Source of the DNA: Pseudomonas phage HPP-Temi
Direction: 5' to 3' (one strand)
Sequence record: PP968062.1
DNA: 64,000 nucleotides
Part shown: positions 3,071-52,698 of the stretch, piece after piece
Layout: the number at the start of each line of letters is the position of its first letter
How positions within the stretch are numbered: position 1 is the stretch's first letter
Notes under the pieces: generated by a model
The model's input: the letters and a program-made list of their open reading frames with translations, nothing else
Database searches by the model: none
Told to the model about the DNA's origin: nothing
Translations under genes and position numbers: made by a program

Positions 3071-3621
3071 TGCTGTTGTACCGGTGTCAGTTGTTTGAGA
3101 GCATTGATGATACGGTGAACAGTATCACGTGCCAGTTCTCGGGTATGGAAGTTATTGGATATTTGGTAACGCAGTTCGACTTCCCCAGTTTCAGAGTTAC
3201 GGTCGAAATCTTTTACGATGTATTCACTATCCAGAATAGCTTCCACCATTTCTTTGTTGAGGTCGAACTCAGCGATAGTTGGTGAAACCAAACGACCCTG
3301 GAGATTTCTGATTACCTCATTGCGGAATGCAATGGCGCCTTCGGCAATCTCCAGTCGCTCTTCGATGGCGATAAACGGATTCTTCCAGAGTTCGGTTTCC
3401 ATGGTAGGACGAACAGAGGCTTTCTCCCATGCAATGCACCAGTAGTACCAACGTTCTTGGATTTCTTCGTTGGCTTTATCGAATGCAGCTATCGCGTTTT
3501 TATTACGATGGCAATCCAGAGGACGAGTATCCTTCGGAAGCCAGGTGTCAGTCTTCTCGTGGTAAACGAAACGATCAACACCGGGAGTTACGGCTTGGAA
3601 TTCCTTCAATTTTTTATCCAT
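3067..3621 (-). CDS. hypothetical protein, 184 aa
   Basis: ORF; first gene of the coupled operon 3621 to 2356. Confidence 0.6.
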   Translation of the reverse strand: MDKKLKEFQAVTPGVDRFVYHEKTDTWLPKDTRPLDCHRNKNAIAAFDKANEEIQERWYYWCIAWEKASVRPTMETELWKNPFIAIEERLEIAEGAIAFRNEVIRNLQGRLVSPTIAEFDLNKEMVEAILDSEYIVKDFDRNSETGEVELRYQISNNFHTRELARDTVHRIINALKQLTPVQQQ

Positions 3622-3747
3622 GTGAAATAATACCTATTGGTTGATAGTATGTAAGAAGATTACGCGTTATTTCTTATTCCTACTGCTGGGTGTTTGCCCG
3701 AAACGCGCAATGCTTGAGACGAACTCTTGGGCGAAAAGAGATGGTAT

Positions 3748-3786
3748 TTAGCCCCTACCTTCGGGTAGGGGCTTTATGCCGTTAAC
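3748..3786 (-). terminator. hairpin (gcccctacc-ttcg-ggtaggggc) with CATAAAG / CTTTATGCCGTT flanks
   Basis: Immediately after the stop of gene 3782..4066 (the stop lies inside the flank); family member. Confidence 0.55.
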
Positions 3787-4066
3787 CGACAATAAGACCC
3801 TCAAGCATTAGGGTTTCGGTGTCGGACGCAGGTTGAGTCAGACGAGTTACACGAATGTAGTTCGTCCAGTCACTCCTGTCATAACAACAGCTGCAACCAC
3901 GGACCTTGATGTTGACAGCTTCGATTTCGAAATCATCGAGCTTGATTTCTTTACCGAAGTGATCGACCATGCGTTGGAACAACTTACCGAAGGAGAACGT
4001 TTCGTACTCGCAATCGATGTGGAGGACATCGACAGTGTCCACCGGGGGATTGTAACTACTGCTCAT
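3782..4066 (-). CDS. hypothetical protein, 94 aa (start at the internal ATG with a strong SD, TAAGGAGATGGCTAATG)
   Basis: ORF; excellent RBS; overlaps the upstream stop by TAATGA. Confidence 0.5.
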   Translation of the reverse strand: MSSSYNPPVDTVDVLHIDCEYETFSFGKLFQRMVDHFGKEIKLDDFEIEAVNIKVRGCSCCYDRSDWTNYIRVTRLTQPASDTETLMLEGLIVG

Positions 4067-4711: not shown

Positions 4712-5721
4712 TTGGTAGGTTCACGTTTACTACGTTGGACTTTATGGATACCTTCCAATTGGTAACCACGGCCAGTTGCTTTGTAGCTGTGTTCCTGATC
4801 CACACGTGCATGGAAAGCCAGGAGGGCTTCGATCGGAGCTTCCACCGGGAAGTACTCGGTGTTGTTGCAGTCCCAACCGAATTCCCACACACCTTCGCGA
4901 ACTTCGTAGCTGTTATCGGTGAGGTAGGTGATGTTGATCGTGTGTGTAGTAGCATTGGCACCGTTGAAGAAAAACGAACCTTCGGTAGCACGAACATCAA
5001 TGCGACCATCATCGATGGTATCCTGATAGTAGAAGCCACGCTTGAAGAAGAACTGAAGCATTGCATTGAAGTAACTGTTCAATACAGCCACTGCGTTAGC
5101 ATCTTCGACTACCCATTTACCATCAACAATCTTGTTCAGATAGTCGCGGTCATGTTGGATACCGAAGTCATTCACGATATCGGCATACAGCTTGTGGTGT
5201 TGAGCAACTTCATACAGACGCTCCAGGGTAGCCCAACGGAGCACACCAGTGGGATGGAGACCCAGCATGATGCGACCGATGTTCCACATGCCAGCACCGT
5301 TGGCTTTGTAGCTCTCGTCCAGGTAGCCTTTGACTTGGGCACCGGGAGAGAGTTCGTCAGCCGGGAAACCAGATGCAGTACGAATGCGGATAACGTTCAG
5401 TACCGCTTCGGGTTCTTTCATGTCCAGCAGGTCAACGCCGAAGGTAGTCCAGCTACCACGGATCTTGTGCTGATACGCAACGCGAACGGTCCCACCGAAC
5501 GGAGTAACGAACCAACGGGCGTCTTCATTGATGACCATGTGGACACCACAGTTCCACAGCGCAGCCAGAGGATCAGTGGATGCCAGGATACGCTTGGTAT
5601 CGTTCTCTTCGCTTTCGGTAGCTTCAGGGCTGGCGCGGAGATGAGTCAAGAGGAACAGGATGGCGGAGTCGTTGGTTTGGGTATTGAGCATTGCACGAGT
5701 CAGGGATGCATTGATGATCAT
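4693..5721 (-). CDS. hypothetical protein, 342 aa
   Basis: Long ORF; no motif recognised. Confidence 0.65.
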   Translation of the reverse strand: MIINASLTRAMLNTQTNDSAILFLLTHLRASPEATESEENDTKRILASTDPLAALWNCGVHMVINEDARWFVTPFGGTVRVAYQHKIRGSWTTFGVDLLDMKEPEAVLNVIRIRTASGFPADELSPGAQVKGYLDESYKANGAGMWNIGRIMLGLHPTGVLRWATLERLYEVAQHHKLYADIVNDFGIQHDRDYLNKIVDGKWVVEDANAVAVLNSYFNAMLQFFFKRGFYYQDTIDDGRIDVRATEGSFFFNGANATTHTINITYLTDNSYEVREGVWEFGWDCNNTEYFPVEAPIEALLAFHARVDQEHSYKATGRGYQLEGIHKVQRSKREPTKWEQEK

Positions 5722-5736
5722 TTCGTAATTTCCTTT

Positions 5737-5937
5737 TTACAGAGTGTTGAGGGTGATGAAGGTATACTGTCCCAGGGCGAAAGCACCGAAGAGGCAGAAT
5801 CCGAATTGGGCTATATCCCGACCACCATTTTTCTCATTGGAACTGAGATAGGTGAGGACCCCGCAGCAGAAGCAGAGGATACCAAGGATGACGAACAGGG
5901 CATAATGGAAAATTCCTACAGTTTCACACATTTTCAA
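5737..5937 (-). CDS. small membrane protein, 66 aa
   Basis: ORF; 2 TM; RBS aaaggaaa. Confidence 0.5.
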   Translation of the reverse strand: MKMCETVGIFHYALFVILGILCFCCGVLTYLSSNEKNGGRDIAQFGFCLFGAFALGQYTFITLNTL

Positions 5938-8816: not shown

Positions 8817-9199
8817 TTAGCGATGATCCGTTGTACGAAATGTTGGAGATTTGCAACCAGCCGATCGAACTCTTCCTCGGTCAGCTGATCACGATGAGAT
8901 TCCAGAAGTACTTCTACCTCCGGAAGAACGTTCAGAGCGATGTCCAGCTGGATACGCGAAATGAACTCTGCGACATCCAGTTCACGATCACGCCTGAGCC
9001 GATTCACCAACTTGCGATGTTGATCACTATTACGGTAGGCCGAGATCTTATCGATCAGGATGTCCGATATACTGCTTTCGATCTGCTGTACTTCGGTCGG
9101 ACCTTCTTCCTTGTAGGCTGCTTTTACCGCCAGAACAGCTGCTACTGCGGTAGAGGCAACAGCGACTGCAATGAGACCATACTTGATGTAGTTTTCCAT
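8813..9199 (-). CDS. membrane protein, 128 aa (N-terminal TM)
   Basis: ORF; hydrophobic N-terminus. Confidence 0.55.
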   Translation of the reverse strand: MENYIKYGLIAVAVASTAVAAVLAVKAAYKEEGPTEVQQIESSISDILIDKISAYRNSDQHRKLVNRLRRDRELDVAEFISRIQLDIALNVLPEVEVLLESHRDQLTEEEFDRLVANLQHFVQRIIAK

Positions 9200-9204
9200 G
9201 ATAT

Positions 9205-9531
9205 TTACTCCCAGCCCATTTCGGCTTTGAATTCATCAACGCGGGTATCAACGATGGCTTTATATTCGCCATCGCTATCACGCATCTCTAGTGCCATCTT
9301 GATACGAAGGCCCAGCAGGCGTCGTGAGAAATCCCTGCGCACCTTGAACTCTTGTTCACTTTCAGCGTTGATGCGAGTAATTTCGAAGAGAGCCTCCAGC
9401 TTCTTCGAGAACTCGTTGAAGTAGATCTTGTCCGTGACTTTCTGAGCCAGGATATCTACACCGATCATGATACCAGCTACGGCGAAACCAATGCCAACAC
9501 CGATCGCTACTTCTTTGAGAGTCTGGTTCAT
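9205..9531 (-). CDS. membrane protein, about 109 aa (start at the internal ATG with SD AGGAAAA)
   Basis: ORF; TM VAIGVGIGFAVAGIMIGVDILA. Confidence 0.5.
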   Translation of the reverse strand: MNQTLKEVAIGVGIGFAVAGIMIGVDILAQKVTDKIYFNEFSKKLEALFEITRINAESEQEFKVRRDFSRRLLGLRIKMALEMRDSDGEYKAIVDTRVDEFKAEMGWE

Positions 9532-9568
9532 TTTATATTTTCCTATTTTCGAATTTGGGGGATATTGC

Positions 9569-9721
9569 TTAACGCAGTTCAGCTTTGGGCTTTGCAGCTT
9601 CTTCCTTAGCTTTACGACGTTCTTCCAGCCAGTTGTTGTGGTACATGGCAACGCCAGCGAAGCCAACAACGGCGACGGCGATAAGGCCAAGTTCCAATGC
9701 GTTTTCTTTAATGAAGCTCAT
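9569..9721 (-). CDS. small TM protein, about 50 aa (MSFIKENALELGLIAVAVVGFAGVAMYHNNWLEERRKAKEEAAKPKAELR), not in the ORF track
   Basis: Hand-translated; tightly packed between neighbours. Confidence 0.4.
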   Translation of the reverse strand: MSFIKENALELGLIAVAVVGFAGVAMYHNNWLEERRKAKEEAAKPKAELR

Positions 9722-9726
9722 GGTGA

Positions 9727-10068
9727 TTATCCCTTCAGAGTGCTGTCGGCATTGAAGACATCGGGACCAACCGAGAGACTTCCCAGAAGATCCGGCGCGA
9801 GGTATACGGAGTTGAGAGTTTCGTAAACACCGGCAACGGCATCTACTTTGACCAGACTAGAACTACGCAGGGAAACCCACTCACCGTTGCGATAGGTTTC
9901 ACCGACCAGTACACGAACGTCATCGACGTCGTTACGGTGTGGCCACAGTACCTTGCCTTCCACCACTTCTACGTTACGTGCATGGTAGACCAGTTTACCG
10001 TTCATGCGCGCAACGATGTTCGGACGCTGAAGATCATCGATAACTTTAACAGCGACTGCCTTTTCCAT
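9727..10068 (-). CDS. hypothetical protein, 113 aa
   Basis: ORF. Confidence 0.5.
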   Translation of the reverse strand: MEKAVAVKVIDDLQRPNIVARMNGKLVYHARNVEVVEGKVLWPHRNDVDDVRVLVGETYRNGEWVSLRSSSLVKVDAVAGVYETLNSVYLAPDLLGSLSVGPDVFNADSTLKG

Positions 10069-10079
10069 TTTGTATCTCC

Positions 10080-10235
10080 TTATTTAGTTACAAGCATTTC
10101 TTGGCCATTCGGCCCGATACGATGACCGAGGATAACCTCGGATTCTTTTTCAACTTTCGGAGCTTCATAGGAACCACCGTAAACAACAGCAGCACCCAGA
10201 ACCATACCAACCAGAATCATTACGATAGCTTTCAT
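10080..10235 (-). CDS. small secreted/membrane peptide, 51 aa (MKAIVMILVGMVLGAAVVYGGSYEAPKVEKESEVILGHRIGPNGQEMLVTK), not in the ORF track
   Basis: Hand-translated and verified codon by codon; SD AAGGA; early-promoter-like motif 25 nt upstream. Confidence 0.45.
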   Translation of the reverse strand: MKAIVMILVGMVLGAAVVYGGSYEAPKVEKESEVILGHRIGPNGQEMLVTK

Positions 10236-10263
10236 GTTGAGTTTCCTTCTCAGAATAGGGGTT

Positions 10264-10295
10264 TATCACATTTGTAATATACGTTTCAAATGGAT
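10264..10295 (-). promoter_or_regulatory. putative phage early promoter, TTTGAAAcgTATATTACAAatg (minus strand)
   Basis: One of 4 near-identical copies of TTTAAA-N3-TATATTACAA, about 30-40 nt upstream of the first small gene of an operon. Confidence 0.5.
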
Positions 10296-10319
10296 TAAAA
10301 TGTACATTCGAATGAGATA

Positions 10320-10346
10320 AAGGAAAGGGCTCCTAAGAGCCCATCC
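10320..10346 (-). terminator. rho-independent terminator (gggctc-ctaa-gagccc plus a U-rich tail on minus)
   Basis: After the stop of gene 10349..10630. Confidence 0.55.
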
Positions 10347-10348
10347 AG

Positions 10349-10630
10349 TTACAGCTTGTTGAGGAACTTGCGGATCTCTTCACGCAGCTCGCGCAGAGTT
10401 GCGGTCATGAGGATCTTTTCTTCTGCATCGCTGATCAGCCTTTCAGCCAGCCCTTCCAGTTCGATCTTGCGTTCGTCACTGGTGTAATGAGTCGGCAGAC
10501 GATCGTTTGCATCGCGCAGTTGTTGCAGAATTTCTTCCGCGGTGTTTTCGTCGGTCCAGGTGATAGCGATCATAGAGAGAACGCCACCGATGAGAACGCA
10601 GCCGAGACCTTTAGCGATATTGGAAAACAT
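10349..10630 (-). CDS. membrane protein, 93 aa
   Basis: ORF; N-terminal TM. Confidence 0.5.
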   Translation of the reverse strand: MFSNIAKGLGCVLIGGVLSMIAITWTDENTAEEILQQLRDANDRLPTHYTSDERKIELEGLAERLISDAEEKILMTATLRELREEIRKFLNKL

Positions 10631-10658
10631 GGTAAATCCTTACAGTTGGAAGTATATG

Positions 10659-10859
10659 TTAAGAGGTTGCTTCTTCGGGAGTAGCTTCGGTCGGTTCCGA
10701 TTCCGGAGTAGCGGGCGCTTCGGTTTCAGCCTCGGGTTCTGTGGCGGGGGTTTCAGCTTCCACCGGTTCCGCAGACAGGGTATCATACAACTTGTAAGCA
10801 GCGGTACCCAGAGCGAGGACAGCTGCAACAGCACCAGAGGCGATCAGAATCTTTTTCAT
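10659..10859 (-). CDS. small protein, 66 aa, with an N-terminal signal/TM segment and a P/E/A/T-rich acidic tail
   Basis: ORF. Confidence 0.5.
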   Translation of the reverse strand: MKKILIASGAVAAVLALGTAAYKLYDTLSAEPVEAETPATEPEAETEAPATPESEPTEATPEEATS

Positions 10860-10873
10860 GGGCGGTTTTCCTT

Positions 10874-11203
10874 TTAAGGCAGGTCTTTGTATATGACCTG
10901 TTTGATGTAATGGTCGATCCGCGGTTCAGCGGTCTTCCTGATTGGTTCGTATTCCTTGGAGAGGATTACGGTTACTTCCTCCCAACAAGCATCACGTAAT
11001 AACTCGTAACGCTTCTCGGGAGTTCCAACAAGGTACTGGCTCCTACGGAGCAAGACACAGTGATAGCTATCAATAATCTTACCAGCATCATTAACAACCT
11101 TGTTCACCATGTCGATATGGCGCTGCATCAGATAGGCAGTTCCAGCACAACAGGCTACAACCACGCCAGTCACTACAGCGCCGATGACGTAGACGGTTCT
11201 CAC
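10874..11203 (-). CDS. membrane protein, 109 aa (GTG start)
   Basis: ORF; N-terminal TM; GTGA coupling. Confidence 0.5.
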   Translation of the reverse strand: MRTVYVIGAVVTGVVVACCAGTAYLMQRHIDMVNKVVNDAGKIIDSYHCVLLRRSQYLVGTPEKRYELLRDACWEEVTVILSKEYEPIRKTAEPRIDHYIKQVIYKDLP

Positions 11204-11295
11204 GAACCTACTACTTCGTCGTAGATGGCACCTGCAATGTTCATTGCCATGATACCAACGGTTACCACGAAGACGGTCTTGAAGAGAGTGTTCAT
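11200..11295 (-). CDS. tiny hydrophobic peptide, about 31 aa (MNTLFKTVFVVTVGIMAMNIAGAIYDEVVGS), not in the ORF track
   Basis: Hand-translated; ATGA-coupled to its neighbours. Confidence 0.3.
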   Translation of the reverse strand: MNTLFKTVFVVTVGIMAMNIAGAIYDEVVGS

Positions 11296-11402
11296 ACTTG
11301 TTCTCCTTGAGCAGCGTTGAAGACTTCGTCTACAGCCCAGCAGGCAGCGTTGACGACGATGATGCAAGCAGCGAGTTTAACACAGAAACGTGCAAGGTCC
11401 AT
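11292..11402 (-). CDS. tiny hydrophobic peptide, about 36 aa (MDLARFCVKLAACIIVVNAACWAVDEVFNAAQGEQV), not in the ORF track
   Basis: Hand-translated; SD AAGGAG; first gene after an early-promoter-like motif. Confidence 0.3.
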   Translation of the reverse strand: MDLARFCVKLAACIIVVNAACWAVDEVFNAAQGEQV

Positions 11403-11429
11403 GGTGAATCTCCTTGATTTGATTGGCTA

Positions 11430-11460
11430 TTATCACACTTGTAATATAGCCTTTAAATTG
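11430..11460 (-). promoter_or_regulatory. putative early promoter, TTTAAAggcTATATTACAAgtg (minus)
   Basis: Second copy of the motif. Confidence 0.5.
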
Positions 11461-11476
11461 GTTTGAATGTAATCGG

Positions 11477-11911
11477 TTAAACTACCGACTTGCGGGTAAT
11501 GCGTTCGATCAGGTTCTGATCAGTGATGAAGTGACCCAGTACACGACCGATGATATCATCGGCCATGTGTTCGTTGTGGATGTTCACATCAGTGCACAGG
11601 TTGTTGATCAGGCCAGCTTGGCGCTGAAGACCTTGAGTGTTAGCGATGGACTTCTTGCGATATTCCTTGATCACTTCAACGAACTGACGTTCACCGGTAA
11701 TGAAGCGACTGTTCAGACTGGAATAACGCAGGATGTTTTCCATCTTGCCGATCATGTTGTCCATGGTCGACATGTGCCACTTCCAGATATCGGACTTGAT
11801 ATCCTTGGCCAGTTCACGTTGATGGTTCATGTAGATGGCATAAGACATGTAAGCGATGAAGGCGATTACACTCAGGGCTACGATTACGTTGATTGCGATA
11901 TTCATTTTCAA
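11477..11911 (-). CDS. membrane protein, 144 aa (N-terminal TM)
   Basis: ORF; preceded by a hairpin plus TTTATGTCGCT. Confidence 0.55.
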   Translation of the reverse strand: MKMNIAINVIVALSVIAFIAYMSYAIYMNHQRELAKDIKSDIWKWHMSTMDNMIGKMENILRYSSLNSRFITGERQFVEVIKEYRKKSIANTQGLQRQAGLINNLCTDVNIHNEHMADDIIGRVLGHFITDQNLIERITRKSVV

Positions 11912-11934
11912 TTTCCTTTTGGGTTGGAGTGAAG

Positions 11935-11972
11935 CGACATAAAGCCCTGATCGGAATGACCAGGACTTTTAA
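11935..11972 (-). terminator. imperfect hairpin with a CATAAAG ... CTTTATGTCGCT flank, downstream of the macro-domain gene
   Basis: Motif family member; weaker stem. Confidence 0.35.
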
Positions 11973-11978
11973 GTTTGG

Positions 11979-12452
11979 TTAAGCAAGGGCCGCCATCCAG
12001 GGCGGTACAACGACCACCATCTCGTTTGGGATATGACCGCTGAATAGTTCTAATGCTTGTTTCACATCAGGCCATTTCAACATGCCGTTTCCGCAACCGA
12101 GCGGGGGTACAACGATCTTCCACTTAGGGTCGATCCCATCTTCTACATCAATGTTGTCGACGATCCATTGAAGACCGTCATTGATGTAGCTTAACTGTGA
12201 ATCATCTTGCCACCGATCTTTAGTCGGGAACATCATGTAACGTTTACCATCATCACCTAGATAGATGGCTGGGTTACCGATTGTGATGATACGGTACTTG
12301 CAGTCATGCTTGTACTTCTGATACAGCTCGGGGAACTTATCGCGAAACCTCTCGGCTAGACCAGTTCCCATTACGCCTCGGGTGTTAACAGTGATAAGGT
12401 AAAGATCCCCAGGCTCTTTAAAGATGTCTTTACCTATTACGAATTCAGCCAT
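11979..12452 (-). CDS. macro-domain protein (ADP-ribose binding/processing fold), 157 aa
   Basis: ITVNTRGVMGTGLAERF matches the macro motif N-x-x-N-x-x-L-x-GGGV, and VVPPLGCGNGML matches the second glycine-rich macro motif. Confidence 0.55.
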   Translation of the reverse strand: MAEFVIGKDIFKEPGDLYLITVNTRGVMGTGLAERFRDKFPELYQKYKHDCKYRIITIGNPAIYLGDDGKRYMMFPTKDRWQDDSQLSYINDGLQWIVDNIDVEDGIDPKWKIVVPPLGCGNGMLKWPDVKQALELFSGHIPNEMVVVVPPWMAALA

Positions 12453-12521
12453 AGTGAATGGCTCCTTTGCCCTACAAAAATCTAATGGTCATGAGACCAC
12501 AACTCATCAGATTGTGCAAGA

Positions 12522-12686
12522 TTAGGCGAACTCGTTTACCGCCTTTTTTACTGCTATAGTTAGGGTAATTGCAGCGGTTATCATCGCGAGTCCAGCGGTT
12601 GCATATTGGAGCAGTTCACGGTTGTGCGCATACTCGCGTCTGGATTTCTCGTTGTCTTCGTGGGACTTTTTGTGATCGTAGAACAT
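12522..12686 (-). CDS. small TM protein, 54 aa (MFYDHKKSHEDNEKSRREYAHNRELLQYATAGLAMITAAITLTIAVKKAVNEFA), not in the ORF track
   Basis: Hand-translated and verified; SD AAGGA. Confidence 0.45.
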   Translation of the reverse strand: MFYDHKKSHEDNEKSRREYAHNRELLQYATAGLAMITAAITLTIAVKKAVNEFA

Positions 12687-12695
12687 GATGTATCC

Positions 12696-12838
12696 TTAGA
12701 GACCGTTAAAGATCAAAGTGAGAATCAAAGCAACTGCAAAGGTAGCGATTACGCCTTCGAGTGTAATCCAGCTCGGAGGTGTGTTGGGGTCATTACGCTT
12801 TTCACGGGGGAACATTTCTTCCTTAGCTTGTTCTTGCA
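12696..12838 (-). pseudogene. small ORF (29 aa) that may be a frameshifted small TM protein
   Basis: ATG with an AGGTG SD right after an early-promoter-like motif. The frame stops after 29 codons, but the +2 frame continues into a clean TM segment (SWITLEGVIATFAVALILTLIFNGL) that has no start of its own. Confidence 0.25.
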
Positions 12839-12846
12839 TAAAGCAC

Positions 12847-13278
12847 CTAATAGAACTGGTTTATTCCCTCTTGTGATATAGGGTTTAAAATGCTTTGAAT
12901 GCAAGGTGGACATTCACGCAGTTCTATAATCAACGCTTCTATGTTACCTTCTTCATTACAATACGTTTGTACATTAGTTATTTCCCCATTTAGACTATTG
13001 AATGCTAGCCTGTGGTGATGATACAGATCTCTGAAGTGCCCTTCAAAGTAACTAGCCGATACCGGATAACGCTGGAGTTCCATTAGGATGTATTGATAAC
13101 CCTTATTGAACTCTTGGGCATTATGGTTGTAAATGAAGTTGTGTTGCAGTTTGATGTATTCAGTTGCCAAAGAGTACAGATGGTTTATTACATCCATGTT
13201 GAGGTCAATGAACCCCTTTAAAGATCCAATATAGTTGTATGACCATACGTGGTCAATACGAAAGAGCACGTTCTGCAT
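12847..13278 (-). CDS. hypothetical protein, 143 aa
   Basis: ORF; overlaps the promoter-like motif region at its 3' end. Confidence 0.5.
   Translation of the reverse strand: MQNVLFRIDHVWSYNYIGSLKGFIDLNMDVINHLYSLATEYIKLQHNFIYNHNAQEFNKGYQYILMELQRYPVSASYFEGHFRDLYHHHRLAFNSLNGEITNVQTYCNEEGNIEALIIELRECPPCIQSILNPISQEGINQFY
12862..12892 (-). promoter_or_regulatory. putative early promoter variant, TTTAAAcccTATATCACAAgag (minus)
   Basis: Third copy, with one mismatch. Confidence 0.45.
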
Positions 13279-13287
13279 ATGGTCCTA

Positions 13288-13322
13288 CCTAAATAAAAAC
13301 CCACCCCAATTAAGGGGTGGGA
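13288..13322 (-). terminator. rho-independent terminator (cccacccc-aattaa-ggggtggg plus UUUUUAUUU on minus)
   Basis: Classic intrinsic terminator ending the 4-gene operon 18368 to 13310. Confidence 0.75.
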
Positions 13323-14695
13323 TCTATACCGTCTTCTGTTACTTCGAAACGGTTAATGAAAACGCCCAGCGTTACAATACCGACGTGGCGATTGACTGTG
13401 GCCCCAGCGTCAGCACTCTTACGTTGTTCGTTTACACCTAATAACACACCGTGGTATGTTTTAACCTTGTTATCAGAGATCGTCTGAAATTTGACAGGCA
13501 TCCCAGGATACAGAAGATCCGGATTACCATAAGTCCATTCGAGTTTAATCTCTTGTCCCTGTTTCCTAGCCATATCGCTGTATTGCTTGAACGGGTTAGA
13601 AGTCAACCGATCCTTAGCCCAGCGTACATTATTGAAACCGGTATCCAGATCCTTCATCTTGACTTCAAATAAGTTAGTAGCCCGATCAACGAGCATCTTA
13701 TTATCTTTATCAATAGCAAAGTCCTGGAAAATTTTACGTGCATCACCAAAGCGGAACGAGTTACCGTTCTGAATCTGCTCTGCAAGGCCACTATCAAGCG
13801 AACTAGCGTCACCCGTGGCCAAGACAGTAATGTGTCGCATCGTGTTTCTAAACGTCTTTTCGGCGCCTTTATAGCGGTCGTTAGGAACGTTGATCAGGTT
13901 GAGTACTTTCGTATTCTTACCGTATCGAGTTGTATCGTAAAGAGGATAGAAATAGATGATCTGGTTCTGGATATATCGACCCATTCCAGTTGCATAGATT
14001 CCACCTTCTTTATCTTGAAGGAACCTGTGAACATCCTTCAGAGGCATCCCATCGGGAATGATAATTTGGTTACGTTCTTCTTGGCTATAACCATCGGCTA
14101 CATCCATAGCAATTAAACGTTGATCATCTGCCCCACCTACCAATTGACCAAACTGAGTCCAGATAGACTGCAAGGCATTCATGGTAGTTGTAATGCGATA
14201 CGTGGTACCGCAGGTAACCATCATCATTTTGTACGTCAGTTCATCTACTAACTGCATCTGAACTTTAATCATACCGATTTGGTTCATCGCCTCACGAGAT
14301 TTCAGGTTAGAGTGTTTACCGGATAGTGCCGGGTTATCATCACCACTAACAGAAATAAATCCACGATAACGCTTTGTAACAGCCTTACGTTCAACATCAC
14401 GTGTAGAGATAGTATCGAGCAGAGGAAGCTCGGACAAATCCACCTGTAGATTATCACGGTAAGGAACGATGTCATGAACGTAGTCACCATAACCGATCAG
14501 AAATTGCACTTCACGAAAATCACCTAACTGGCCACTCCCATAGTCCCTCTGTAAATACAGAAAATCGAGACGGATGGGAGTAATCCATTTTTTGTTAGCG
14601 AGGATCTTAATCTCATTACGGAAGTTAGCGTAGCTTTCGCCGATCTCAGTTACCTGCTCTACTTCACGCATTAATAGCGTGCTATCGACAGACAT
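13310..14695 (-). CDS. hypothetical protein, 461 aa (probable late/virion protein)
   Basis: Long ORF; last gene of the late operon. Confidence 0.65.
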   Translation of the reverse strand: MSVDSTLLMREVEQVTEIGESYANFRNEIKILANKKWITPIRLDFLYLQRDYGSGQLGDFREVQFLIGYGDYVHDIVPYRDNLQVDLSELPLLDTISTRDVERKAVTKRYRGFISVSGDDNPALSGKHSNLKSREAMNQIGMIKVQMQLVDELTYKMMMVTCGTTYRITTTMNALQSIWTQFGQLVGGADDQRLIAMDVADGYSQEERNQIIIPDGMPLKDVHRFLQDKEGGIYATGMGRYIQNQIIYFYPLYDTTRYGKNTKVLNLINVPNDRYKGAEKTFRNTMRHITVLATGDASSLDSGLAEQIQNGNSFRFGDARKIFQDFAIDKDNKMLVDRATNLFEVKMKDLDTGFNNVRWAKDRLTSNPFKQYSDMARKQGQEIKLEWTYGNPDLLYPGMPVKFQTISDNKVKTYHGVLLGVNEQRKSADAGATVNRHVGIVTLGVFINRFEVTEDGIDPTP

Positions 14696-52669: not shown

Positions 52670-52698
52670 ATTCATTGTTGTAATATAGGCTTTAAACC
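52670..52698 (-). promoter_or_regulatory. putative early promoter, TTTAAAgccTATATTACAAcaa (minus)
   Basis: Fourth copy of the motif. Confidence 0.5.

What the first reader, a model, noticed from the sequence alone, without database searches (positions are those of the whole stretch)
11979..12452. Macro-domain protein embedded in an early small-protein operon (candidate anti-defence or ADP-ribose-processing factor)
Both macro-domain signature regions are present (VNTRGVMGTGLA and PPLGCGNGML). The gene lies in an operon driven by an early-promoter-like motif, between tiny membrane proteins. Phage macro domains can reverse ADP-ribosylation, for example from DarT-like or other host ADP-ribosyltransferases, or degrade NAD-derived signalling molecules. 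Early expression fits a counter-defence role.
Basis: partly seen in the sequence, partly recalled or inferred. Interest (0 to 1): 0.6.

Follow-up and report, generated by a model that had tools for sequence, protein, structure and literature searches.

The report
Phage AdfM anti-DarT macrodomain ortholog

Summary
The ORF at 11979-12452 (minus strand, 157 aa) is real and is a macrodomain: Pfam PF01661 scores 30.6 bits against a cut-off of 22. Its nearest solved relatives are DarG antitoxin macrodomains, by sequence (E 5.5e-22) and by fold (TM 0.82-0.86).

The window comes from a PhiPA3/PA1C-like Pseudomonas jumbo phage. The gene is the syntenic ortholog of PhiPA3 gp108 (68% identity) and PhiKZ gp104 (61%). 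Morgan et al. (Cell Rep 2026) characterised both as AdfM, a nucleus-imported, DarG2-like DNA ADP-ribosylglycohydrolase that protects these phages from DarTG2. The catalytic residues N23 and K78 and the ADP-ribose-binding loops are conserved. An ortholog of the import factor PicA lies in the same window.

So the anti-defence reading is supported, but it is already known.

The "early operon" part is unresolved:
- The perfect early-promoter motifs lie downstream of the gene.
- A one-mismatch copy at 12872-12889, conserved across phages, lies upstream of a 47-aa / 54-aa / adfM unit.
- A conserved hairpin sits just before adfM.
- PhiKZ AdfM is reported as a late gene.

The flanking small genes are predicted single-pass membrane proteins. 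Interest is low.

The parts
11979..12452 (-). adfM: 157-aa DarG2-like macrodomain (anti-DarT factor macro), ortholog of PhiKZ gp104 and PhiPA3 gp108. Catalytic N23 and K78. ADP-ribose loops GVMGTG (residues 26-31) and PPLGCGNG (116-123).
12462..12467 (-). Ribosome-binding site AAGGAG, 9 nt upstream of the adfM ATG. The block AAGGAGCCATT is identical in PA1C, PhiPA3 and phiKZ.
12472..12519 (-). Conserved stem-loop in the adfM 5' leader. The outer stem (AAUCUrAUGAG / CUCAUUAGA) is conserved in sequence. The inner stem differs between lineages but stays paired. Function unknown; it may act as an attenuator, terminator or processing site.
12522..12686 (-). 54-aa predicted single-pass membrane protein, immediately upstream and probably co-transcribed. 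A homologous unannotated ORF exists in PhiPA3.
12696..12839 (-). 47-aa predicted single-pass membrane protein (PHIKZ102.1-like, phrog_34982), the first gene of the putative unit.
12872..12889 (-). Degenerate phiKZ-type early-promoter-like element TTTAAACCCTATATCACA (core TATATTAC changed to TATATCAC), embedded in the 3' end of the gp102-like ORF. It is a conservation island: 87% identity to PhiPA3 against a 30-60% background.
13300..13321 (-). phiKZ-type intrinsic terminator (CCCACCCC-TTAATT-GGGGTGGG followed by TTTTTATTT). It closes the upstream virion-protein (gp101-like) gene and separates the structural operon from the gp102-like/adfM region.
   Evidence: consensus from PMC10914365
11941..11969 (-). 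12-bp hairpin followed by UUUAUGU, 10 nt after the adfM stop codon. It is the likely terminator of the adfM unit (-20 kcal/mol, z = -3.0).
60853..62487 (-). PicA ortholog (544 aa; 50% identity and 531 bits to PHIKZ069), the nuclear-shell import factor that imports AdfM in PhiKZ. Q291 matches PhiKZ Q297, whose mutation impairs gp104 import.
   Evidence: PMC11087766

Best explanation
The gene encodes AdfM, a stand-alone DarG2-type macrodomain of a nucleus-forming (chimallivirus) Pseudomonas jumbo phage. The proposed mechanism runs as follows. When the host's DarT2 toxin ADP-ribosylates thymidines in TNTC motifs of single-stranded phage DNA, AdfM binds the ADP-ribose in its macrodomain pocket. 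It then cleaves the thymidine-ribose bond using the catalytic lysine K78, with N23 positioning the substrate and W81 likely stacking on the thymine. This restores unmodified DNA, so replication and especially genome packaging can proceed. The protein is expected to be imported into the phage nucleus by the phage's own PicA pathway, through a folded surface patch around residues 77-95. It lacks the C-terminal DarT-binding domain of bacterial DarG, so it should act purely as an enzyme (an orphan antitoxin) and not by sequestering the toxin. Shown here: fold, family, catalytic residues, orthology, synteny, and the presence of PicA. Inferred from experiments on orthologs: substrate, nuclear import, and protection against DarTG2.
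For: Family and fold:
- Pfam Macro is above its cut-off.
- The best solved relatives by sequence are M. tuberculosis and T. aquaticus DarG macrodomains (E 5.5e-22 and 3.7e-21) and Thermosipho DarTG (3.8e-18), against E about 1 for TARG1.
- PADLOC DarG matches at 3.2e-36 and NCBIfam antitoxin_DarG at 1.3e-35, both over the macrodomain part only.
- The AlphaFold2 model has pLDDT 94.7 and pTM 0.90. Its top four Foldseek PDB hits are all DarG macrodomains, with TM 0.82-0.86.

Orthology:
- Identity is 95% to PA1C, 68% to PhiPA3 gp108 and 61% to PhiKZ gp104.
- The gene sits in the same position, after the gp98-gp102 equivalents.

Active site:
- N23 and K78 (T. aquaticus DarG N22 and K80) are invariant in 35 family members.
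- T21, T77, W81, G119, G121, N122 and G123 match the DarG ADP-ribose contacts (residue list from PMC5179494).

Context and published experiments:
- A PicA ortholog is present in the window.
- For PhiKZ and PhiPA3 AdfM, published work shows in vitro removal of T-linked ADP-ribose, reduced activity in N23A, rescue of DarT2 toxicity, nuclear localisation, and a 3-6 log titre loss of deletion mutants on DarTG2 hosts (PMC13309987).
Against: Nothing was measured for this particular protein. The import-recognition stretch (residues 77-95) is only 68% identical to PhiPA3 and 53% identical to PhiKZ. PhiKZ and PhiPA3 do not import each other's AdfM, so import here is an inference that rests on co-evolution with the phage's own PicA. 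T. aquaticus DarG K29, whose K29E mutation lowers activity, is T30 here. It is also A in the active PhiKZ enzyme, so this is probably tolerated. ChmA is not in the window.
Confidence: 0.9

Rival explanations
1. It is a generic macrodomain 'phosphatase' or protein de-MARylase: ADP-ribose-1''-phosphate phosphatase, O-acetyl-ADP-ribose deacetylase, or a TARG1-like protein glycohydrolase. It would act on metabolites or on ADP-ribosylated proteins, not on DNA.
For: PHROG 335 and many GenBank records label homologs 'phosphatase' or 'Appr-1-p processing'. TARG1 and Poa1p are the next structural neighbours, with TM 0.75-0.78. The catalytic lysine is shared with TARG1 (PMC5179494).
Against: Sequence similarity to TARG1 is not significant (E 1.1), against 5.5e-22 for DarG. 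Foldseek E-values differ by about six orders of magnitude. The DarG-specific tryptophan (W83 in T. aquaticus, A90 in TARG1) is present as W81. The orthologs were shown to act on T-ADP-ribosylated DNA and to be needed specifically against DarTG2.
Confidence: 0.05
2. It degrades or sequesters NAD-derived immune signals (for example Thoeris gcADPR) or otherwise counters NAD-depleting defences.
For: Macrodomains bind ADP-ribose-containing ligands. This is an argument from general knowledge only; no tool result here points to it.
Against: No similarity to known signal sponges or degraders was found. The only significant PADLOC hit is DarG. The orthologs concentrate inside the phage nucleus, away from cytoplasmic signalling. 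Deletion phenotypes tracked with DarTG2 hosts only.
Confidence: 0.02
3. It is a catalytically dead or binding-only macrodomain, an ADP-ribose reader kept for another role such as nucleus-associated DNA metabolism.
For: ASO knock-down of PhiKZ gp104 mildly reduced ChmA accumulation in a host without DarTG (PMC12571901). This hints at some role beyond DarTG2.
Against: All catalytic and ligand-binding residues are conserved. The PhiKZ enzyme is active.
Confidence: 0.03

Closest known systems
AdfM (anti-DarT factor macro): PhiKZ gp104, PhiPA3 gp108, Goslar gp83, Asesino gp217 (Morgan et al., Cell Rep 2026, PMC13309987)
   Same: Same fold, same size (157 aa against 160-162), 61-68% identity, same genomic position, same catalytic N23/K78, and the same type of host phage with PicA.
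   Different: The recognition surface (residues 77-95) and the 96-115 loop differ; the loop is 5 residues shorter than in PhiKZ. The core of the upstream promoter-like motif is TATATCAC here, as in PA1C and PhiPA3, against TATATTAC in phiKZ. The exact sequence is absent from public collections.
Bacterial DarG2 antitoxin of the DarTG2 toxin-antitoxin system (PDB 5M31, 5M3E, 5M3I, 7OMU)
   Same: Homologous macrodomain with 37-39% identity and TM 0.82-0.86. The catalytic Lys/Asn, the Trp and the Gly-rich loops are shared. It works the same way, as a DNA ADP-ribosylglycohydrolase.
   Different: No C-terminal DarT-binding domain: NCBIfam gives 123 bits against a 250-bit cut-off, with only profile positions 7-148 of 338 matched. 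There is no adjacent DarT gene. It is phage-encoded and nucleus-targeted, and it carries an extra acidic loop at residues 101-110.
AdfN (phage NADAR orphan antitoxin against DarTG1; PMC11825919)
   Same: Same strategy: the phage carries an orphan antitoxin-like enzyme that erases DarT's DNA ADP-ribosylation.
   Different: Unrelated fold (NADAR). It is specific for guanosine-ADPr made by DarT1 and does not counter DarTG2.
AdfA (RB69/T4) and AdfB (ICP1 gp145)
   Same: Phage anti-DarT factors.
   Different: Small non-enzymatic proteins thought to bind and block DarT, with no macrodomain.
TARG1 / OARD1 (human terminal ADP-ribose glycohydrolase)
   Same: Nearest non-DarG structural neighbour, with a shared catalytic lysine mechanism.
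   Different: Acts on protein glutamate-ADPr. Sequence similarity is not significant (E about 1), and it has Ala where DarG and AdfM have the Trp.

Membership tests
AdfM (chimallivirus anti-DarT factor macro) | Macrodomain fold / Pfam PF01661 | tested here: met
   Pfam scores 30.6 bits against a cut-off of 22. The AF2 model has pLDDT 94.7 and gives macrodomain hits.
AdfM (chimallivirus anti-DarT factor macro) | Closest to DarG2 macrodomains and not to other macrodomain classes | tested here: met
   By phmmer against the PDB, DarG scores 5.5e-22 and TARG1 scores 1.1. PADLOC DarG matches at 3.2e-36. The top four Foldseek hits are all DarG.
AdfM (chimallivirus anti-DarT factor macro) | Active-site Asn and Lys (PhiKZ N23/K78; T. 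aquaticus DarG N22/K80) | tested here: met
   N23 and K78 are present and are invariant in 6 of 6 and 35 of 35 aligned sequences.
AdfM (chimallivirus anti-DarT factor macro) | Orthology and synteny with PhiKZ gp104 / PhiPA3 gp108 | tested here: met
   Identity is 61% and 68%. The gene lies downstream of the gp98-gp102 equivalents, as in PA1C, PhiPA3, SL2 and phiKZ.
AdfM (chimallivirus anti-DarT factor macro) | Encoded by a nucleus-forming phage with the PicA import factor | tested here: met
   The PicA ortholog at 60853-62487 has 50% identity and 531 bits to PHIKZ069. ChmA is not inside the window and was not tested.
AdfM (chimallivirus anti-DarT factor macro) | Localises to the phage nucleus | not testable with these tools
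   Shown for the PhiKZ, PhiPA3 and Asesino proteins. The recognition region is only 53-68% identical here.
AdfM (chimallivirus anti-DarT factor macro) | Removes DarT2-made ADP-ribose from thymidine in ssDNA and protects the phage from DarTG2 | not testable with these tools
   Experimental for the orthologs only.
Bacterial DarG2 antitoxin (type II TA, NCBIfam NF048014) | N-terminal DarG-type macrodomain | tested here: met
   Profile positions 7-148 are matched at 1.3e-35.
Bacterial DarG2 antitoxin (type II TA, NCBIfam NF048014) | C-terminal DarT-binding domain (full-length equivalog score) | tested here: not met
   The protein is only 157 aa. It scores 123.3 bits against a cut-off of 250, and only 148 of 338 profile positions are covered. 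PADLOC covers positions 8-145 of 329.
Bacterial DarG2 antitoxin (type II TA, NCBIfam NF048014) | Adjacent darT toxin gene | tested here: not met
   None of the ten neighbouring ORFs hits DarT or any DarTG component in PADLOC.
TARG1/OARD1-type macrodomain | Significant sequence similarity to TARG1 | tested here: not met
   E = 1.1-1.5. Only fold-level similarity is seen, with TM 0.75-0.78 and 21% identity.
phiKZ-type early (virion RNAP) promoter upstream of the gene | AT-rich conserved element (TTTAAA-N3-TATATTACA in these phages) upstream, in the sense orientation | tested here: inconclusive
   A one-mismatch copy lies at 12872-12889. It is conserved in PA1C, PhiPA3, SL2 and phiKZ, with 87% identity over a 30-60% background. 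No TSS data are available, and PhiKZ gp104 is reported as late.

The most novel reading that the evidence does not exclude
The adfM unit may have an undescribed regulatory design. A conserved early-type (virion RNA polymerase) promoter would drive two tiny membrane-protein genes. A structurally conserved stem-loop immediately upstream of the adfM ribosome-binding site would then gate read-through or translation. AdfM output would therefore be controlled post-initiation, with early transcription but delayed or conditional expression. This would reconcile the early-like motif with the reported late class. It could also mean AdfM is available earlier, before the nucleus matures, than is currently assumed.
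Probability: 0.2. Interest if true: 0.35.

Novelty: already known. Interest (0 to 1): 0.15.

Why it matters
The finding confirms that a sequence-only reading correctly picked out a real counter-defence gene. The biology itself was published in 2026: a DarG2-like orphan antitoxin imported into the phage nucleus to erase DarT2 DNA ADP-ribosylation.

The practical value is in annotation. All ten features under the match, the ortholog among them, are labelled 'hypothetical protein' in the records of PA1C, PS119XW, phiHQ and HHBS36_1, and more distant homologs are often labelled 'phosphatase'. These could be renamed AdfM.

For phage therapy, carriage of AdfM predicts that the phage can infect DarTG2-positive P. 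aeruginosa isolates.

The only open points are the timing and regulation of the gene and the function of the co-transcribed small membrane proteins.

Tried and rejected
1. An exact-match search for TATATTAC, and for the 19-nt motif with up to 3 mismatches, suggested that no early-type motif lies upstream of the gene. A differently anchored degenerate pattern then found the one-mismatch copy at 12872-12889, so the first conclusion was withdrawn.
2. The DarT2 target motif TNTC looked 13% depleted against a first-order Markov null (z = -7.4). Under a second-order expectation it is not depleted (ratio 1.04, rank 45 of 64 comparable patterns). This lead was rejected.
3. The sigma-70 promoter scan gave no more sites than shuffled sequence (14 against 12.1). 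This is uninformative, as expected for a phage that is independent of host RNAP.
4. TATG late-promoter matches overlap the start codons of the gp102-like gene and of adfM. The motif is too short to carry any weight.
5. Rfam (E up to 1) found nothing in 9000-14000, and there are no tRNAs in the window.
6. RNAalifold on the 5' leader failed because of loop indels. Single-sequence folds were used instead.
7. The primary phiKZ transcriptome paper (Ceyssens 2014) and the TSS supplements of two later papers are not held. The 'late' class therefore rests on the citation in PMC13309987.
8. A weak PADLOC typeIV_Cas5 hit of the 142-aa neighbour (E 0.0014 among 10 proteins x 5027 models) was treated as chance.

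Full report
**Observation.** It is preceded by an AAGGAG ribosome-binding site 9 nt upstream of the ATG. The two quoted signature stretches are residues 22-33 and 116-125. Pfam PF01661 is matched over almost its whole length at 30.6 bits, against a curated cut-off of 22. PHROG 335 matches at 1.5e-36. This is far beyond chance.

**What kind of macrodomain.**
- Against all PDB sequences, the only significant hits are the macrodomains of M. tuberculosis DarG (5.5e-22), T. aquaticus DarG (3.7e-21) and the Thermosipho DarTG fusion (3.8e-18). TARG1/OARD1 and Poa1p score E about 1.
- The PADLOC DarG model (3.2e-36) and the NCBIfam antitoxin_DarG equivalog (1.3e-35) both match, but only over their N-terminal approximately 145 positions. 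The NCBIfam score of 123 bits is below the 250-bit full-length cut-off. The protein is therefore a DarG macrodomain without the C-terminal DarT-binding half.
- An AlphaFold2 model built on a 35-sequence alignment is confident, with pLDDT 94.7 and pTM 0.90.
- The model's four best Foldseek matches in the PDB are all DarG macrodomains (TM 0.82-0.86, 33-34% identity). TARG1 follows about six orders of magnitude weaker in E-value.

**Whose gene it is.**
- The window is about 81% identical in DNA to Pseudomonas jumbo phages PA1C, PS119XW, phiHQ, HHBS36_1 and BRkr.
- The protein is 95% identical to the PA1C homolog, 68% to PhiPA3 gp108 and 61% to PhiKZ gp104.
- It occupies the same position as those genes, directly after the gp98-gp102 equivalents, which include virion structural proteins.
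- The exact sequence is not in the 15-billion-protein collection. The phage itself therefore appears to be an uncatalogued relative of PA1C.

**What is already known.** Morgan et al. [quoted passage not shown] They report the following:
- The proteins localise to the phage nucleus.
- Purified PhiKZ AdfM removes ADP-ribose from a DarT2-modified TNTC oligonucleotide, and N23A reduces this activity.
- AdfM rescues DarT2 toxicity in E. coli.
- AdfM deletions in PhiKZ and PhiPA3 lose 3-6 logs of titre on DarTG2-expressing hosts.
- In the mutant, phage DNA becomes ADP-ribosylated and genome packaging fails.

Import depends on PicA (gp69) and on a folded surface that includes gp104 residues 77-95. 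PhiKZ and PhiPA3 do not import each other's protein (PMC11087766).

**Residue-level membership.**
- I mapped the T. aquaticus DarG ADP-ribose contacts and mutational hot spots listed by Jankevicius et al. (PMC5179494) onto the window protein.
- N22 corresponds to N23, K80 to K78, T20 to T21, T79 to T77 and W83 to W81. G117, G119, N120 and G121 correspond to G119, G121, N122 and G123.
- N23, K78, G119 and G123 are invariant in all 35 family members.
- The only notable difference is K29 to T30. The active PhiKZ enzyme has Ala at that position.
- The recognition stretch 77-95 (TKDRWQDDSQLSYINDGLQ) is identical to PA1C but only 68% identical to PhiPA3 and 53% to PhiKZ. The adjacent loop is 5 residues shorter than in PhiKZ. 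This fits lineage-specific import.
- The window also carries the PicA ortholog at 60853-62487, with 50% identity and 531 bits to PHIKZ069. A Gln aligns with PhiKZ Q297, the residue whose mutation lowers gp104 import.
- No neighbouring ORF resembles DarT or the DarG C-terminal domain.

**Mechanism.** The best explanation, at about 0.9 confidence, is that this is a functional AdfM. It would be an orphan, purely enzymatic antitoxin, imported into the phage nucleus, that hydrolyses thymidine-linked ADP-ribose placed on single-stranded phage DNA by host DarT2. This would keep replication and packaging going. Fold, family, catalytic residues, synteny and PicA are shown here. Substrate, localisation and protective effect are inferred from the two characterised orthologs.

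**The 'early operon' claim.**
- The extended AT-rich motif of these phages (TTTAAA-N3-TATATTACA, the phiKZ early-promoter type; PMC7598289 and PMC8244752) occurs perfectly or nearly so at 11440-11457, 10273-10290 and 52679-52696, all on the minus strand. The first two are downstream of adfM and precede runs of small membrane-protein genes. They cannot drive adfM.
- A one-mismatch copy, TTTAAACCCTATATCACA, lies at 12872-12889. It sits inside the 3' end of the gp102-like ORF, about 35 nt before the 47-aa gene and about 420 nt before adfM.
- The same element is present at the same place in PA1C and PhiPA3 (core TATATCAC) and in SL2 and phiKZ (core TATATTAC).
- In a window-versus-PhiPA3 comparison it is a conservation island: 87% identity against a 30-60% background. 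The upstream phiKZ-type terminator at 13300-13321 is the only comparable island.
- PhiPA3 also has unannotated 46-aa and 56-aa homologs of the two small membrane proteins. The layout of motif, small TM gene, small TM gene, then adfM is therefore conserved.
- Between the 54-aa gene and adfM lies a 14-15-bp stem-loop. Its outer stem is conserved in sequence, and its inner stem differs between lineages yet stays paired. Shuffle z-scores are -2.0 in the window and -4.0 to -4.5 in PA1C, PhiPA3 and phiKZ.
- A second hairpin with a UUUAU tail follows the adfM stop codon.
- Against early expression, Morgan et al. state that PhiKZ AdfM is expressed late, citing Ceyssens 2014. I could not obtain that paper or any TSS tables.
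- Timing in this phage is therefore unresolved. A conserved structure separates it from adfM, and the only published statement says the gene is late.

**Neighbours.** The 47-aa and 54-aa proteins upstream each have one hydrophobic segment above the classical Kyte-Doolittle threshold. So do the 142-aa protein and six of the next seven small proteins downstream. Only some of them fall in PHROGs, all of unknown function.

**Rivals.**
- A generic 'phosphatase' or TARG1-like protein de-MARylase (0.05) is disfavoured by the large gap between the DarG and TARG1 scores, by the DarG-specific Trp, and by the ortholog experiments.
- An anti-Thoeris or NAD-signal role (0.02) has no support and does not fit nuclear localisation.
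- A binding-only role (0.03) is contradicted by the intact active site.

**Verdict.** The feature is an ortholog of an experimentally characterised protein, so it is already known and of low interest (0.15). The residual novelty lies in the regulatory architecture of the unit and in the unexplained small membrane proteins.

Noticed in passing
window 12472-12519 (-); L001 about 5690-5740; L002 3945-3979; L007 1440-1475: A strong stem-loop lies immediately upstream of the adfM ribosome-binding site and is conserved in four phage lineages. The outer stem is conserved in sequence, and the inner stem shows compensatory differences. A U-run follows only in the window and PA1C. There is no Rfam match.
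   Followed up: partly
window 9569-11911 (-): A run of at least nine small genes (36-142 aa), nearly all with one predicted transmembrane segment, lies downstream of adfM. It is punctuated by two near-perfect early-promoter motifs (11430-11457 and 10263-10290) and a terminator-like hairpin at 10327-10342. All are of unknown function. It looks like an early-expressed battery of tiny membrane proteins.
   Followed up: partly
L002 (PhiPA3 HQ630627) 3612-3752 and 3762-3932, + strand: Two small ORFs (46 and 56 aa, each with one TM segment) are homologous to the window's 47-aa and 54-aa genes. They are not annotated in the PhiPA3 record, between gp107 and gp108.
   Followed up: yes
window 52679-52696 (-): A third perfect copy of the early-promoter-type motif (TTTAAAGCCTATATTACA) lies about 35 nt upstream of an ATG. 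It is far from the adfM region.
   Followed up: no
window 60853-62487 (-): The ortholog of the nuclear import factor PicA (PHIKZ069; 50% identity) is present. Q291 matches the PhiKZ Q297 position that affects AdfM import. nvRNAP subunit genes lie nearby, by synteny with PA1C.
   Followed up: yes
whole window: The phage is only about 81% identical in DNA to its nearest GenBank relatives (PA1C, PS119XW, phiHQ) over 10500-14000. Its AdfM sequence is absent from a 15-billion-protein collection. It is probably an undescribed species-level relative of PA1C.
   Followed up: partly
GenBank records (for example PQ015378 RVTF4, MW291021, OQ921725): Homologs of this macrodomain carry inconsistent annotations, including 'cysteine-type peptidase', 'ADP-ribosyltransferase', 'phosphatase' and 'hypothetical protein'. 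The ART and peptidase labels are likely mis-annotations.
   Followed up: no
window 13300-13321 (-): A textbook phiKZ-type intrinsic terminator (CCCACCCC/GGGGTGGG followed by TTTTTATTT) lies after the gp101-like virion gene. It is conserved at 77-80% with PhiPA3 while the flanks are 40-55% identical.
   Followed up: yes
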